Shown: one piece after another, positions 3,884-63,380 of the stretch | Position numbering within the stretch: position 1 is the stretch's first letter | Layout: the number at the start of each line of letters is the position of its first letter | Virus record (IMG/VR): IMGVR_UViG_3300048854_000081 | Span: 64,001-128,000 of that record | Strand: one strand, 5' to 3' | DNA: 64,000 nt | Origin: a virus | Lineage: Duplodnaviria > Caudoviricetes | Translations under genes and position numbers: made by a program | Notes under the pieces: generated by a model | Databases searched by the model: none | The model's input: only the letters and a program-made list of their open reading frames with translations | What the model was told of the DNA's origin: nothing

Positions 3884-4084
3884 ATGACCGAAGCTGAGCA
3901 GATTGCATCCACCCTCGTCGAACCTTACAAGGCCGACCTTGCTCCCTATCGTGGTCTGACTCCTACGCTGGACGATGTGCGTAAGTTCGTGGTCCGTTAC
4001 TTCCGTCAGCCCGGTCGAGTCTATCCCGGTCACCTGATGGCAGGTGAGATTGCCAAGGCTCTGTACGCCCTGATCATCGCTTGA
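3884..4084 (+). CDS. hypothetical early protein
   Basis: ATG 3884 downstream of promoter. Confidence 0.7.
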   Translation: MTEAEQIASTLVEPYKADLAPYRGLTPTLDDVRKFVVRYFRQPGRVYPGHLMAGEIAKALYALIIA

Positions 4085-26789: not shown

Positions 26790-27161
26790 TTAGTCGAACA
26801 GCTTGTTAACTAGTTCGCTGATGGCGATACGCTTACGGACACGGGTGCCCTTAACGGTCTTGCTTAGACGAACGTATGGCTGACCACCGATCATTTCCTG
26901 AGCAACGTAGTCGCCGTAGGTGTTTGAGTATACACGACCGTCAGCGGTAAGTGCATAGTTGTTAAAGCTAGGAATGGTCTTGTCGTTAGGAACCGAAGCC
27001 CAACGCTCACCAGCAACGATGTCGGAAACGTGACGACGGTCAATGCCGTAGATGTTGCCTAGAGCGGTTGAGGAAATACCATTTGCGTGGTGACGACGGA
27101 TATCGATTACGTCAGAGACGGTTAGCTTTTGTCTTGTTTGATTGCTCATATTTTTCTCCAA
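26790..27161 (-). CDS. HTH + NUMOD4-like DNA-binding protein (no HNH)
   Basis: KLT..DV..IR...LG..YGI....VS.IV...RW followed by F.NY.....GRVYS. Confidence 0.7.
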   Translation of the reverse strand: MEKNMSNQTRQKLTVSDVIDIRRHHANGISSTALGNIYGIDRRHVSDIVAGERWASVPNDKTIPSFNNYALTADGRVYSNTYGDYVAQEMIGGQPYVRLSKTVKGTRVRKRIAISELVNKLFD

Positions 27162-60533: not shown

Positions 60534-60560
60534 AAAAAGCCCACCTTATAGGTGGGCTTT
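60534..60560. terminator. bidirectional terminator
   Basis: AAAGCCCACCT-tat-AGGTGGGCTTT. Confidence 0.8.
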
Positions 60561-61133
60561 CAACTTCTGGACGATGGCTCTAATTCTGTCCATACCGCCT
60601 TCATTCCAATGCTCACAAGCAGCATCGAGCATGTCGAACCGCTCCTTCCACATGGAAGGACGTTGCCAGTCAGGCGTGTGAACGATATAGCCTAGATTAT
60701 GTAAGAGAATAGAGCGAATTTCATCAACCGTGACGTTCTTTCCTTCCATGGTCTCGGCAAGGATATTCTCCAAGGCAACAATCTTGAATTCATCCATAAG
60801 ATGATCCATATTCTTAAACAGGGTCTTACCATCAGGTAAAACCTCTACCTGCGTCCAGTCTCGTCCAAAATCGTTTAACTTCAGACAATCCATATTGTCT
60901 TGGCTCGTGTAAAGGAGCATATGGCTCGTATCATGTAAAAACATTCTACGTAGCCATCTTGTCGTGTTGAATCGCTTAATGTCATACCATGTCTTGTGGT
61001 TGATGAGGGTTACCTCATTATTTTCAACACTATATGCATGGACAGGACGGTAGCGTAGCCATTTATATGTGACTGGGAGTCCTGCCAGAACTGTCCCGTC
61101 ATAAATTGAATTTTTAACGTGTACGGTTTTCAT
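60546..61133 (-). CDS. hypothetical protein
   Basis: GGGAG RBS before ATG 61133. Confidence 0.75.
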   Translation of the reverse strand: MKTVHVKNSIYDGTVLAGLPVTYKWLRYRPVHAYSVENNEVTLINHKTWYDIKRFNTTRWLRRMFLHDTSHMLLYTSQDNMDCLKLNDFGRDWTQVEVLPDGKTLFKNMDHLMDEFKIVALENILAETMEGKNVTVDEIRSILLHNLGYIVHTPDWQRPSMWKERFDMLDAACEHWNEGGMDRIRAIVQKLKAHL

Positions 61134-61134
61134 G

Positions 61135-61189
61135 TGAACTCCCACAATATAGGTTTTGGAGTATATTGTGGGAGTTCAATCCATGTCAA
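61135..61189 (-). promoter_or_regulatory. RBS-sequestering 17-bp hairpin with overlapping sigma70 promoter
   Basis: TGAACTCCCACAATATA/TATATTGTGGGAGTTCA; TTGACA-N18-TATACT on minus strand. Confidence 0.7.
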
Positions 61190-61193
61190 ACTT

Positions 61194-61586
61194 TTAAACG
61201 GTTAGCTCTTTGAATGCTTCGAAGGTGAATCCTTCACCAAACGGAGCCAGTAATGGCTTAATAAATTTCTCCATGTCACTCTCAGATGAGCGATGACGTA
61301 AGAAGTTGATACGCTGGCGAACGTCTACAAGAGCACCTTCAGAGAAGATGACACTAGGGTCACGCTTGCGGATTAAGGCGTAGACGTAGTGATGGATGGC
61401 CTTGAGGTCAGACTCCCAGCGATAGCCACTGACTTGCTTGGCCTTCTCACCACCCCAAATCCATTCGTTAAAGTGCGTATCGACCTTGTACTTCTTGTGA
61501 CGGCCATCTGCGATAAACTTCTTCCACGATGCGCGGATAGCAAGGAACTGTTCTTTGGTAAAAATTGAGGTTTCGTTAGTATTCAT
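61194..61586 (-). CDS. hypothetical protein downstream of HD-Pth2
   Basis: AGGA RBS; HH..YALIR motif. Confidence 0.75.
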   Translation of the reverse strand: MNTNETSIFTKEQFLAIRASWKKFIADGRHKKYKVDTHFNEWIWGGEKAKQVSGYRWESDLKAIHHYVYALIRKRDPSVIFSEGALVDVRQRINFLRHRSSESDMEKFIKPLLAPFGEGFTFEAFKELTV

Positions 61587-61598
61587 GGTTTATTTTCC

Positions 61599-62465
61599 TT
61601 ATTTGAGTAGTTGAAATCTTGAAAACGCTTTACGATCTTTGCCGATAAGTGGACGGGAGGCCAGTGCGGTCGCCTGATTACCAATATCGGGTTCCTTAAA
61701 AATAGTGTAATCGATGCCCTGCGCCGCGAGTTCGTCAGCACACTTCATCAACTTTGCTTCACTCTTGATGGAGCAGAGGATCACCGAAGGGTGTTCATCA
61801 CCATCTTTAAGAAATTTTCTCCCCGACTCGATGGCAGCATGAGACGCCTGCACGGCCTGTTGGGCGGGGCTGAGGTCATTGCGCACGAGGACATACATGT
61901 AAGCATGATCGAAGAGCTTCTTACAGATTTGCTTGCCAAGCTTTTCAAGCTTCTTAAACTTGATCTTGAAGCTGTCAGACTCGATACCACCAAACATATT
62001 GGCGTTCGAATGCAACTCTGCGAGAGCCGTGATCATGAGGGTGCAGAGGTCTTTTGTGGAAAGATTCTGTGACAGGATGTCGTCCGCCTTCAGGGTATGG
62101 AAATCCATATCATGTTCGATCAAAGTCGAAATGACTGGGCGATTCGGGAAGAGAGTATCCCAAATTTCCTTAGACTGATTAGCGTGATCGGGGAAATGCT
62201 GCTTACCATCTGCGTCAACAGTGCGACAAAACGGCTTACCGATGTCGTGCCAGATGTTGTAATGCCTGATGGTCTTATAATCGTGAAGGTTACCAAGAAT
62301 CTGATCTTGATAGTCAGTAAACCATTGCGGTAAACGGAAGCCTTCTGTATCGCCAGAGATAAGGCGACGGGTATAACTCCAAACACTCAAACCATGCTGA
62401 ATAATGCTCTGGTTCTTGGCCTGCTTGGTGGCCTTCATGCTGTTAATGGTCTATGCAAGGTTCAT
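61599..62465 (-). CDS. HD-domain + Pth2-like fusion with in-frame UAG at codon 5
   Basis: HG.SV, HDIGKP, H...DH (HD); YVLVRNDL...QQAVQASHA, F.EPD....TA (Pth2-like); AAGGA-N9-ATG AAC CTT GCA TAG ACC ATT AAC AGC ATG. Confidence 0.8.
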
Positions 62466-62537
62466 TGTCGTATTTCCTTTGTTGGGTTGTGACCGGAACA
62501 TTCCGGATCGAGGTCTAATATACAGTATTTAGATGAA

Positions 62538-63380
62538 TCAAAACTGAATAGAATTTGTTATCCAGTTCTTCACCGCTTCTGGTGAGCAAGAATTCATGAA
62601 CTTAGTTTTACAGTTATTCGATATAAAGTCAAGATAGGCTTTATCATCCTTGTATCGCTCAATCAGGTCGATGACATCGCTGAAGTCACCCTTACATTCA
62701 ATGTAATCGATATTTGCTTCAAACTGGTGGCCGAACGGCAGCAATGTCGATATGTAAGGAGTGATGACCGGAATACCTAGGGCAAACGATTGAAGGTGCG
62801 TTCTGTCTAAGATGTCATTGGTCGCACCCGGCACAACCACGTTCATACGGCAGGTATTCATGGAAGACAGGTATTCACTCTGCTCTACCATGGTGAAATC
62901 TACTGGAACGCCACTATACGCTTTTAGTTTGTCGAGAACCAGATTGCGGCGCTCAATAGCACCGCCATATATCTTACATTTATAGAAGATACTACCATGA
63001 GGATCATATGATATAGAATCTTTGAGGGTTGAATAGTCCGACCAGTTCATGAAAGACATCGGTGCAAAGGGGATACATCTAGGATCGGAGTGACCCGTCG
63101 TGTGGAATTTAAAATAAGGAATGTCTGAATCTATCAGCTTGAAGTCCAACACATTGTAATGGAAATCTGAGTAATCAAAGATGGCTTTCTTTCCATCAAT
63201 CTCGACAGCAAAATTGTTATTATGCTTGGCATCTTTGACGGTGGTATCTTCATCTACGATGGTAACGGTTCCCATGTGCTCAAGATAGTTCAAGACATGC
63301 TTATAATGTGTAATATAATAAGCTTCTTGTGAAAGATTACACAATGTCTGACAGGCTTTACCGGGAAAATTGATTATCAT
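62538..63380 (-). CDS. glycosyltransferase-like protein (GT-B-type C-terminal half)
   Basis: EY...M......VPG....DR...S.A.G.P.I.P, YIEC..DFSD. Confidence 0.6.
   Translation of the reverse strand: MIINFPGKACQTLCNLSQEAYYITHYKHVLNYLEHMGTVTIVDEDTTVKDAKHNNNFAVEIDGKKAIFDYSDFHYNVLDFKLIDSDIPYFKFHTTGHSDPRCIPFAPMSFMNWSDYSTLKDSISYDPHGSIFYKCKIYGGAIERRNLVLDKLKAYSGVPVDFTMVEQSEYLSSMNTCRMNVVVPGATNDILDRTHLQSFALGIPVITPYISTLLPFGHQFEANIDYIECKGDFSDVIDLIERYKDDKAYLDFISNNCKTKFMNSCSPEAVKNWITNSIQF

What the first reader, a model, noticed from the sequence alone, without database searches (positions are those of the whole stretch)
62436..62480. In-frame amber codon five codons into the HD-Pth2 gene: stop-codon sensor on a peptidyl-tRNA hydrolase
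Seen (minus strand): AAGGA-N9-ATG AAC CTT GCA TAG ACC ATT AAC AGC ATG AAG... The only good RBS serves ATG 62465; the ORF-track ATG 62438 has none. The long genes in the window are not interrupted by TAG, so this is not genome-wide recoding. Established: RF2 is autoregulated by an early stop, and minigenes cause peptidyl-tRNA drop-off that requires Pth. Inference: expression depends on UAG read-through (phage suppressor tRNA or RF1 limitation), or the MNLA minigene couples reinitiation to termination status, giving feedback control of a translation-rescue enzyme.
Basis: partly seen in the sequence, partly recalled or inferred. Interest (0 to 1): 0.78.

Follow-up and report, generated by a model that had tools for sequence, protein, structure and literature searches.

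The report
Amber-gated tRNA hydrolase gene in phages
A giant phage that uses the normal genetic code keeps a UAG stop as the fifth codon of a two-domain tRNA-end-processing gene and carries its own UAG-reading tRNAs, so the enzyme is probably made only when those tRNAs override the stop, which gives the puzzling suppressor tRNAs of such phages a conserved target.

Summary
On the minus strand a Shine-Dalgarno site serves ATG 62465, and TAG 62453-62451 lies in frame with the 279-codon HD-Pth2 ORF. The ATG at 62438 has no ribosome-binding site.

The TAG is not a private mutation. XacN1, Xoo-sp13, RAS14/CM1 and two IMG/VR relatives keep it. In two independent surveys, about 72% of Pth2-like genes (51/71 clusters) and 74% of HD genes (50/68) start with ATG, 1-7 codons, then a stop. 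Neighbouring genes do so in 3% of cases (p about 1e-44).

In 43 of 48 gated Pth2-like genes no start codon lies between the TAG and the conserved core. The base after the TAG is a purine in 91/98 cases.

The window's genome encodes two tRNA(CUA) genes and is not TAG-recoded. Elsewhere a tRNA(CUA) lies within 4 kb of the gene in 58/71 clusters, always on the same strand. Rare early TGA and TAA variants are accompanied by tRNA(UCA) and tRNA(UUA).

Best reading (0.8): programmed amber read-through by the phage's own suppressor tRNA. Leader-minigene reinitiation is disfavoured.

I found no paper describing this; the XacN1 authors could not find targets for their suppressor tRNAs. This scan has met the same phenomenon before on other DNA (at least eight follow-ups). 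Nothing here is experimental.

The parts
62475..62479 (-). Shine-Dalgarno motif (AAGGA) serving the upstream ATG, 9 nt spacer
   Evidence: Read. It is the only SD-like motif in the 5' region. Homologues have AGGA/GAGGA/AAGGA at the same distance from their upstream ATG.
62463..62465 (-). Proposed true start codon (ATG) of the HD-Pth2 gene
   Evidence: An in-frame ATG lies 1-7 codons before the stop in 51/71 Pth2-like and 50/68 HD gene clusters.
62454..62462 (-). Three leader sense codons (Asn-Leu-Ala), not conserved in sequence or number among relatives (1-3 codons)
   Evidence: Leaders in relatives read MK, MKK, MSFT, MKLS, ML and MFTT.
62451..62453 (-). In-frame amber codon (TAG, followed by A): the proposed read-through gate
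   Evidence: Conserved in XacN1, Xoo-sp13, RAS14, CM1, L005 and L006 and family-wide. The next base is a purine in 91/98 contexts.
62439..62450 (-). Four post-TAG codons (Thr-Ile-Asn-Ser), conserved as protein (x-hydrophobic-Asn-x) with synonymous variation. The spacing to the next Met/Leu is always 4 codons in this clade.
   Evidence: 10 clade members. Homologous post-stop segments in L064 and L181 align to the GAP32 HD protein N-terminus, which is translated from an ordinary ATG.
62436..62438 (-). ATG used by ORF callers as the start. It has no SD and is read here as an internal Met (Leu in RAS14/CM1, L006 and L128).
61905..62438 (-). HD phosphohydrolase domain (residues 1-178 of the 279-aa ORF), closest to the HD part of a bacterial tRNA-nucleotidyltransferase-type 'tRNA processing enzyme'
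   Evidence: Invariant H15, H64-D65, H85, D110 and H114. AF2 model pLDDT 94. 3wfr_F Z 14.5, rmsd 2.7 over 148 residues, chain residues 259-446; generic HD proteins score Z 10.3 or less.
61602..61904 (-). Pth2-like domain (residues 179-279)
   Evidence: Pfam PTH2 25.1 bits (cut-off 23) on the domain alone; 11/13 family members match. Profile hit to 2zv3 at E 3.7e-8. 3erj_A Z 14.9, rmsd 1.9 over 102 residues; Bit1 1q7s Z 14.8.
61599..61601 (-). Real stop codon (TAA) of the gene

Best explanation
The HD-Pth2 gene is translated from the SD-served ATG at 62465. Its fifth codon, UAG, is decoded as an amino acid by the phage's own amber-suppressor tRNA(s). These are two tandem tRNA(CUA) genes at genome positions 26819-26975, about 99 kb away and outside the window. 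Without a charged suppressor, RF1 releases a four-residue peptide and little or no enzyme is made. With it, the full protein is made: Met-Asn-Leu-Ala-X-Thr-Ile-Asn-Ser-Met-Lys and so on. Synthesis of this two-domain tRNA-3'-end enzyme is therefore made conditional on, and roughly proportional to, suppressor-tRNA activity. The gate sits at codons 2-8, so a failed attempt costs almost nothing, and a ribosome waiting at the UAG still covers the start site. SHOWN: the conserved in-frame stop; the coding conservation after it; the lack of alternative starts in most relatives; cognate suppressor tRNAs in the same genomes; stop/anticodon covariation; a purine-rich context after the stop. INFERRED: that the tRNAs are expressed and charged; which amino acid is inserted (Lys or Gln is likely for class-I CUA tRNAs, from general knowledge of amber-suppressor identity); and why gating is advantageous.
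For: (1) The TAG and its layout are conserved in all close relatives at 63-86% protein identity: XacN1, Xoo-sp13, RAS14, CM1, L005 and L006. In RAS14/CM1, L006 and L128 the 'second ATG' is a Leu codon.
(2) Family-wide surveys gave 51/71 Pth2-like clusters and 50/68 HD clusters with ATG, 1-7 codons, then a stop. The figure for neighbouring long frames is 25/764, and about 10 of those 25 are partner or paralogue genes. Fisher p is 1.6e-44 and 3.4e-43.
(3) 43/48 gated Pth2-like representatives have no ATG/GTG/TTG between the TAG and the conserved core.
(4) The TAG is position-specific: 3 TAGs in 4,942 internal codons. The loci show no general TAG recoding.
(5) The window's genome has two tRNA(CUA) genes, at 70.5 and 53.1 bits on Rfam tRNA. 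XacN1 has two; Xoo-sp13, RAS14, ME3, Arash and Cane17 have one each.
(6) A tRNA(CUA) lies within 4 kb in 58/71 clusters, on the same strand in 62/62 cases and within 300 nt in 19.
(7) Covariation: the early-TGA locus L109 has tRNA(UCA), and the early-TAA locus L135 has tRNA(UUA).
(8) The base after the gate TAG is A in 67, G in 24, C in 6 and T in 1. Among this phage's genuine TAG terminators it is a purine in 12/27 (p 1.5e-7).
(9) Post-stop residues in L064 and L181 are homologous to residues of the GAP32 HD protein that are translated from an ordinary start.
(10) On a domain tree the gated state lies on both sides of the midpoint root and in all major clades, with about 4-6 changes. It has therefore been kept over deep divergence, although 7 of 9 point mutations would turn TAG into a sense codon.
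Against: There is no protein, Ribo-seq or tRNA-charging data, so every step of decoding is inferred. In the window's own clade 7 of 10 members, including the window, have an in-frame ATG four codons after the stop, so reinitiation could also give a near-full-length protein here. One of the two tRNA(CUA) genes has an aberrant T-loop. The suppressor genes lie about 99 kb from the gene in this genome. About a quarter of homologues have ordinary starts, so the gate is dispensable for enzyme function. A strong suppressor would also read through the roughly 6% of this phage's genes that end in TAG, and host genes too. Only 16-19% of independently found phage tRNA(CUA) loci have the gene nearby, so this gene cannot be the only reason phages carry such tRNAs.
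Confidence: 0.8

Rival explanations
1. Leader minigene with termination-reinitiation. Ribosomes translate the four-codon ORF, terminate at UAG, and some of them reinitiate at ATG 62438 twelve nucleotides downstream. The protein then starts at Met-Lys-Ala-Thr, and output reflects termination or peptidyl-tRNA drop-off status rather than suppression.
For: ATG 62438 exists, lacks its own SD and lies 4 codons after the stop. The same ATG is present in 7/10 clade members and in most of the 550 database homologues called at 279-285 aa. Short SD-led minigenes are known to cause drop-off that needs Pth (general knowledge of the lambda bar minigenes).
Against: RAS14/CM1, L006 and L128 have Leu codons in place of that ATG. 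43/48 gated Pth2-like genes have no canonical start at all between the stop and the conserved core. Reinitiation does not require the leader to be in frame, yet it always is. It also does not explain the co-encoded cognate tRNAs, the TGA/UCA and TAA/UUA covariation, or the protein-level conservation of the codons between the stop and the ATG.
Confidence: 0.12
2. UAG is used in another non-standard way: as an initiation codon read by a CUA-anticodon initiator-like tRNA, or skipped by ribosome hopping from the codon before the stop to a matching codon downstream.
For: In XacN1, Xoo-sp13 and RAS14 the codon before the TAG (AAG) recurs a few codons downstream. Engineered CUA initiator tRNAs can start at UAG (general knowledge).
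Against: The window has GCA before the TAG and no matching landing codon in frame. The CUA tRNAs have G1:C72 and lack the three G:C pairs in the anticodon stem that mark initiators. The SD spacing fits the ATG, not the TAG: 21 nt to the TAG here. An in-frame upstream ATG would be unnecessary under this model.
Confidence: 0.03
3. The phage uses a reassigned genetic code (TAG as a sense codon genome-wide), so the early TAG is simply one of many.
For: TAG is rare as a terminator: 18/378 and 27/458 long ORFs. Suppressor tRNAs are present.
Against: Long genes are not interrupted by TAG. The only candidates were off-frame artefacts, or an ordinary gene junction that carries TGA/TAA in XacN1. Only one SD-ATG-TAG site opens on a long frame. 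In the surveyed loci, reading TAG as sense gains no more coding coverage than reading TGA as sense.
Confidence: 0.01
4. Sequencing error, recent nonsense mutation or pseudogene.
For: None beyond the bare presence of a stop codon in a reading frame.
Against: The same stop at the same place occurs in more than 100 independently assembled phage genomes, with an intact, conserved downstream frame and a confident two-domain fold.
Confidence: 0.01

Closest known systems
Stop-codon-recoded phages with phage-encoded suppressor tRNAs (TAG or TGA reassigned; crAss-like, Lak and others; bioRxiv 10.1101/2021.08.26.457843)
   Same: A phage-encoded suppressor tRNA lets in-frame stop codons be translated in a standard-code host, and this is proposed to gate expression of particular genes.
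   Different: There, tens to hundreds of late genes carry many in-frame stops, and the 'code-change module' is tRNA + aaRS + release factor. Here the genome uses the standard code, a single gene carries one stop at codon 2-8, and the gated genes are always the same two tRNA-end enzyme families. That paper does not mention any hydrolase.
prfB (RF2) autoregulation through an early in-frame UGA
   Same: A translation-factor gene carries an early in-frame stop whose fate (termination or recoding) sets the output of the gene.
   Different: prfB escapes by +1 frameshifting and senses its own product. Here the escape is in-frame read-through by a separate, co-encoded tRNA, and it is unknown whether the product acts back on that tRNA.
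Programmed stop-codon read-through in viruses (Qbeta A1 protein, retroviral gag-pol)
   Same: An in-frame stop is read through at a set efficiency in a favourable 3' context.
   Different: Those use host near-cognate tRNAs, lie at the end of a complete protein and produce an extended minor product. Here the stop is at the very start, so all-or-none synthesis depends on a virus-encoded cognate suppressor.
Lambda bar minigenes and Pth
   Same: A two-to-four-codon SD-led ORF ending in a stop, linked functionally to peptidyl-tRNA hydrolase.
   Different: bar minigenes are free-standing and toxic to Pth-deficient hosts. Here the mini-ORF is always in frame with, and continuous with, the hydrolase gene, and most relatives lack a downstream start.
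Synthetic amber-suppressor gates (e.g. PMC7969014, suppressor-tRNA feed-forward loop)
   Same: An amber codon placed early in a gene plus a co-expressed suppressor tRNA gives tight translational control.
   Different: That is an engineered device. This appears to be a natural, ancient and widespread counterpart.
XacN1 'orphan' suppressor tRNAs (PMC5852040)
   Same: The same phage clade, with the same two tandem tRNA(CUA) genes.
   Different: The authors read through the 18 amber terminators of annotated ORFs and found no target. The target proposed here, the XacN1 ORF364 homologue, has its TAG upstream of the annotated start, so it was invisible to that test.

Membership tests
Pth2 peptidyl-tRNA hydrolase (Pfam PF01981) | Sequence match above the curated threshold | tested here: met
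   Domain alone scores 25.1 bits against a cut-off of 23, and 11/13 family members match. The whole protein scores 22 bits, just under the cut-off. Profile against PDB: 2zv3 at E 3.7e-8.
Pth2 peptidyl-tRNA hydrolase (Pfam PF01981) | Pth2 alpha/beta fold | tested here: met
   Residues 178-279: 3erj_A Z 14.9, rmsd 1.9 over 102 residues; 1q7s, 1rlk, 2zv3, 1wn2 and 1xty at Z 13.6-14.8.
Pth2 peptidyl-tRNA hydrolase (Pfam PF01981) | Canonical active-site elements | tested here: inconclusive
   The Q..H pair and the D/T-containing loop are conserved (Q197, H200, E249-P250-D251, T257). The Gly/Lys-rich loop of archaeal Pth2 falls in an alignment gap.
Pth2 peptidyl-tRNA hydrolase (Pfam PF01981) | Hydrolysis of peptidyl-tRNA | not testable with these tools
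   Needs an enzyme assay.
HD-domain metal-dependent phosphohydrolase superfamily | H...HD...D metal-binding motif | tested here: met
   H15, H64-D65, H85, D110 and H114 are invariant in 24 homologues. Pfam itself gave no HD hit at E below 0.01.
HD-domain metal-dependent phosphohydrolase superfamily | HD helical fold | tested here: met
   Residues 1-178: 3wfr_F Z 14.5 (rmsd 2.7, 148 residues), then GppA/PPX, PgpH, PhnZ, Rel, HD-GYP and Cas3-HD at Z 7-10.3. Helical folds need caution, but the top hit stands 4 Z units above the rest.
Programmed read-through by a cognate, virus-encoded suppressor tRNA | In-frame stop conserved in diverged homologues at the same place | tested here: met
Programmed read-through by a cognate, virus-encoded suppressor tRNA | Sequence after the stop is coding and no alternative start is available | tested here: met
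   Family: 43/48 have no start between the stop and the core. Post-stop residues are homologous to translated residues of GAP32. For the window's own clade the test is only partly discriminating, because an ATG is present in 7/10 members.
Programmed read-through by a cognate, virus-encoded suppressor tRNA | Cognate suppressor tRNA encoded in the same genome | tested here: met
   Two tRNA(CUA) genes. Relatives.
Programmed read-through by a cognate, virus-encoded suppressor tRNA | Stop type covaries with the suppressor anticodon | tested here: met
   TGA with UCA (L109) and TAA with UUA (L135). This rests on only two such loci.
Programmed read-through by a cognate, virus-encoded suppressor tRNA | Read-through protein and charged tRNA observed | not testable with these tools
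   Needs mass spectrometry, Ribo-seq or tRNA charging assays.
Genome-wide stop-codon reassignment (code 15) | Many genes interrupted by in-frame TAG; low coding density under the standard code | tested here: not met
RF2-type autoregulatory recoding | The recoding site senses the activity of the gene's own product | not testable with these tools
   The substrate of the HD-Pth2 enzyme is unknown.
Leader minigene with termination-reinitiation | A start codon close downstream of the leader stop in all members | tested here: not met
   Absent in 43/48 gated Pth2-like genes and in 3/10 members of the window's clade.

The most novel reading that the evidence does not exclude
The suppressor tRNA and the amber-gated HD/Pth2-like enzyme form a closed control loop. 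The enzyme acts on the suppressor tRNA itself or on its products, for example by deacylating aminoacyl-tRNA(CUA), hydrolysing short peptidyl-tRNAs stalled at UAG, or trimming the tRNA 3' end. The early UAG then reports suppressor activity back to the synthesis of its own regulator, holding nonsense suppression at a set level in a standard-code cell. This would be a tRNA-based analogue of RF2 autoregulation. Supporting hints: same-strand adjacency in 62/62 cases; adjacency is retained in 18/20 clusters whose gene has lost the gate; both domains resemble enzymes that work on the tRNA 3' end.
Probability: 0.2. Interest if true: 0.9.

Novelty: new variant of a known kind. Interest (0 to 1): 0.8.

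Why it matters
Several papers on cultured jumbo phages report amber-suppressor tRNAs in genomes that use the standard code and say they cannot explain them (XacN1, PMC5852040; RsoM2USA, PMC8504454; phiKp24, PMC8386662).

This finding names a concrete, conserved target: the first codons of an HD/Pth2-like tRNA-end enzyme gene. It shows the pairing is ancient and spans phages of Proteobacteria, Bacteroidota and Actinobacteria as well as uncultured megaphages.

The open question becomes directly testable in culturable phages. It also flags a systematic annotation error, because these genes are called truncated or in fragments. It describes a natural single-gene translational gate of the kind synthetic biologists build with amber codons. 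Finally, it may show an intermediate stage on the way to full stop-codon reassignment.

Tried and rejected
- Local RNA structure that might stimulate read-through or hide the RBS: none (141 nt, z -0.17).
- Sigma-70 promoter or terminator on the gene's strand near the 5' end: none found by the simple scan.
- Other suppressor targets in this genome: coding-potential candidates for mid-gene TAGs were off-frame artefacts. The helicase/downstream-ORF junction at genome 257930-259981 is two genes, with TGA and TAA at the junction in XacN1 and separate matches in other relatives.
- Further Pth2-like or HD paralogues in the genome: none.
- A single wide alignment for locus retrieval failed and was split in two.
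- Amino acid inserted at UAG: not resolvable. The leaders are unconserved, so no homologue aligns a sense codon to the TAG. The tRNA bodies are class I, with A73 or G73 and a Lys/Met-like look.
- Hopping and UAG initiation were considered and rejected (see rivals).
- Literature: eight searches and four papers read. No description of an amber-gated Pth2/HD gene or of a tRNA(CUA)-Pth2 module turned up. The library lacks most subscription journals.
- Reciprocal test: only 11/67 independently found phage tRNA(CUA) loci have the gene nearby. I therefore rejected the idea that every phage suppressor tRNA comes with this module.

Full report
**1. The observation**

An AAGGA motif lies at 62479-62475. 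Nine bases later comes ATG 62465-62463, followed by three sense codons and TAG at 62453-62451. Four more codons lead to the ATG at 62438, which ORF listing takes as the start of a 279-codon frame ending at 61599. Everything is in one frame. The second ATG has no ribosome-binding motif.

The window is positions 64001-128000 of a 350,036-bp phage genome. In that whole genome only three sites combine an SD, an ATG, 1-7 codons and a TAG that opens onto at least 60 further codons. This is the only one that opens onto a long frame (283 codons).

**2. What the gene encodes**

An AlphaFold model built on 24 homologues is confident (pLDDT 94).

- Residues 178-279 have the Pth2 fold: 3erj Z 14.9, rmsd 1.9 Å over 102 residues, with Bit1 and four archaeal Pth2 structures at Z 13.6-14.8. 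They reach Pfam PTH2 when scanned alone, at 25.1 bits against a cut-off of 23. A family profile finds archaeal Pth2 2zv3 at E 3.7e-8, although the Gly/Lys-rich loop of canonical Pth2 is missing.
- Residues 1-178 are an HD domain with invariant H15, H64-D65, H85, D110 and H114. The best structural match, by four Z units, is the C-terminal part of a bacterial 'tRNA processing enzyme' (3wfr, Z 14.5). Generic HD hydrolases follow.

Both halves therefore resemble enzymes that work on the 3' end of tRNA. The genome has no other copy of either domain.

**3. The stop is conserved in relatives**

The nearest named relatives are the jumbo phages XacN1, Xoo-sp13, RAS14 and CM1, at 63-69% protein identity. 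All have an SD, an ATG, one or two Lys codons, a TAG, four codons, and then the residue annotated as the start. Two IMG/VR relatives (86% and 72% identity) do the same.

The leaders differ in sequence and length. The four post-stop codons are conserved as protein (x, hydrophobic, Asn, x) with synonymous changes. The 'second start' is a Leu codon in RAS14/CM1, L006 and L128. In RAS14 the annotators had to start the gene at a GTG 18 codons inside the conserved domain.

**4. The pattern is family-wide**

In more distant jumbo phages the two domains are separate genes or are fused in the opposite order.

- The Pth2-like gene starts with ATG, one or two codons, then TAG in GAP32, XbC2, fHe-Yen9-04, ME3, RsoM2USA, Arash, pT24, the mycobacteriophage Cane17 and two megaphages.
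- HD genes carry a TAG at codon 4 in RsoM2USA and LR745206, or near codon 41 in the GAP32 group.

I then made two surveys that were blind to the 5' end.

- **Pth2-like survey.** 95 IMG/VR loci were retrieved through conserved Pth2-like peptides, giving 71 clusters at 80% identity. Of these, 48 have an ATG within 8 codons upstream of a TAG that lies within 8 codons of the conserved core. Two more are HD-Pth2 fusions like the window. One has TGA in that slot.
- **HD survey.** 80 metagenome loci were retrieved through HD-domain peptides, giving 68 usable clusters. Of these, 38 HD genes are gated, 10 are gated Pth2-HD fusions, and 2 have an early TAA.

The same motif occurs in 25 of 764 neighbouring long open frames. 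About ten of those 25 are themselves HD partners, second Pth2-like copies or a third recurrent family. Fisher p values are 1.6e-44 and 3.4e-43.

The TAG is position-specific: only 3 further TAGs occur in 4,942 internal codons. The loci are not TAG-recoded, because reading TAG as sense gains no more open frame than reading TGA as sense.

On a quick maximum-likelihood tree of the domain, the gated state lies on both sides of the midpoint root and in every major clade. Ordinary starts form two supported clades plus singletons, about 4-6 changes in all.

**5. Read-through rather than reinitiation**

- In 43 of 48 gated Pth2-like representatives no ATG, GTG or TTG lies between the TAG and the first conserved strand.
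- The residues after the stop in L064 and L181 are homologous to the N-terminal residues of the GAP32 HD protein, which there follow an ordinary ATG.
- The leader is always in frame, which reinitiation would not require.
- The base after the gate TAG is A in 67, G in 24, C in 6 and T in 1 of 98 non-redundant contexts. This is the context known from classical E. coli work to favour amber suppression (my knowledge, not tested here). Among the genuine TAG terminators of this phage the next base is a purine in only 12 of 27 (p 1.5e-7).
- No RNA structure is predicted around the leader.

**6. The suppressor tRNAs**

ARAGORN finds 41 tRNAs in the genome, including two tandem tRNA(CUA) genes at 26819-26892 and 26899-26975. 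Both pass the Rfam tRNA threshold, at 53.1 and 70.5 bits. The weaker one has an unusual T-loop.

- XacN1 has two such genes; Xoo-sp13 and RAS14 have one each.
- ME3, Arash and Cane17 each have one, 250-500 nt from the gated gene.
- In the Pth2-like survey a tRNA(CUA) lies within 4 kb in 58 of 71 clusters. It is on the same strand in 62 of 62 cases and within 300 nt in 19. CUA is by far the commonest anticodon there.
- The one early-TGA locus carries a tRNA(UCA), and an early-TAA locus carries a tRNA(UUA) on a 2.4-kb contig.

The dependence is asymmetric. Only 11 of 67 tRNA(CUA) loci found by a tRNA pattern alone have the gene nearby.

**7. No genome-wide recoding here**

TAG ends 5-6% of long ORFs. 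Candidate mid-gene TAGs were off-frame artefacts. The one plausible case, a helicase followed in frame by a 164-codon ORF, is two genes: XacN1 has TGA and TAA at that junction, and other relatives have separate genes. In this genome the HD-Pth2 gene is the only convincing target of the two suppressors.

**8. Comparison with what is known**

The XacN1 paper reports the two CUA tRNAs. [quoted passage not shown] Their test could not see a TAG upstream of an annotated start.

The RsoM2USA and phiKp24 papers also leave the role of their suppressor tRNAs open. The main survey of recoded phages describes a module of suppressor tRNA, aaRS and release factor, and never mentions a hydrolase. Eight full-text searches found no description of this gate.

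Within this scan the phenomenon has been met before on other genomes, in at least eight follow-up reports. I saw these only after my own analysis, and they agree with it. This instance adds:
- the fused HD-Pth2 architecture with the gate in front of the HD domain;
- suppressors unlinked from the gene by about 99 kb;
- the HD-anchored survey;
- the TAA/UUA and TGA/UCA covariation;
- the contrast between the gate context and the context of genuine terminators;
- the link to the explicit open question in the XacN1 paper.

**9. Mechanism and limits**

I commit to programmed amber read-through by the phage's own suppressor tRNA (0.8). This makes synthesis of a tRNA-3'-end enzyme conditional on suppressor activity.

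Why this is useful is inference. The tight same-strand linkage, which is kept even in clades that lost the gate (18 of 20 clusters), suggests that the enzyme and the tRNA are functional partners. The boldest reading is a feedback loop that limits suppression (0.2).

Nothing here is experimental. Expression and charging of the tRNAs, the residue inserted, and the enzyme's substrate are all unknown.

Noticed in passing
L109 (IMG/VR), Pth2-like gene near 4001; L135 (metagenome contig WBZM01038642.1), HD gene near 694: Variants of the gate with other stops. L109 has ATG, 6 codons, then TGA, with a tRNA(UCA) in the locus. L135 (and L118) have ATG-TTG-TAA, and L135 carries a tRNA(UUA) on the same 2.4-kb contig.
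   Followed up: partly
L050:5244-5649 and L113:5536-5965: A third recurrent gene family next to the module, sharing a Cys-Pro-Tyr ... Arg-Trp-Val ... Ser-Ile-Arg motif, also starts with ATG, 1-2 codons, then TAG. No Pfam match.
   Followed up: partly
L012:1944-1962 (GAP32), same place in L011 (XbC2) and L014 (fHe-Yen9-04): The HD genes of the GAP32 group start at an ordinary ATG but carry a conserved internal TAG (between two Gly codons) near codon 41. GenBank annotates the region as three or four small fragments.
   Followed up: partly
Genome G000 positions 26819-26892 (L313:523-593, minus strand): One of the two tandem tRNA(CUA) genes has a non-canonical T-loop (CGCAAAT in place of TTCGAAT) and G73. 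Its body is unrelated to the second, canonical A73 tRNA(CUA).
   Followed up: partly
L009:17429-17503 (RAS14): RAS14 also encodes a tRNA with a UUA anticodon (ochre-reading), which is not annotated in the record. No TAA-gated gene was looked for in that genome.
   Followed up: no
L015:2501-2575 (Salmonella phage Arash): The record annotates this tRNA as tRNA-Phe, but ARAGORN calls the anticodon CUA. It lies about 500 nt downstream of the gated Pth2-like/HD gene pair.
   Followed up: no
L017:1156-1185 (Klebsiella phage RaK2): The Pth2-like gene has a TAG three codons before its ATG, but there is no upstream ATG. A tRNA-Leu(UAA) ends a few bases upstream. This may be a decayed gate.
   Followed up: no
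L001:2280-2320 (XacN1) and L002:2290-2330 (Xoo-sp13): A TTGACA-type promoter-like element overlaps a 9-bp inverted repeat about 90 nt upstream of the gated gene. The window has a smaller CCGGAA/TTCCGG hairpin at 62506-62519 instead.
   Followed up: no
L007:7702-8122 (XacN1): ARAGORN calls a tmRNA-like gene (tag ending in ALAA) in the tRNA region, about 1 kb from the two suppressor tRNAs.
   Followed up: no
Genome G000 positions 257930-259981 (L314): A helicase gene ends in TAG-A, and a 164-codon gene follows in the same frame two codons later. Relatives show these are separate genes (TGA/TAA in XacN1), so this is an ordinary terminator in a suppression-prone context.
   Followed up: yes
window 61194-61586, 60546-61145 and 62538-63380 (all minus strand): The three ORFs flanking the HD-Pth2 gene have no Pfam match. 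In XacN1 and Xoo-sp13 the upstream neighbourhood holds NAD+ synthetase and a GatB/YqeY-like 'glutamyl-tRNA amidotransferase'. In RAS14 a valyl-tRNA synthetase lies downstream.
   Followed up: no
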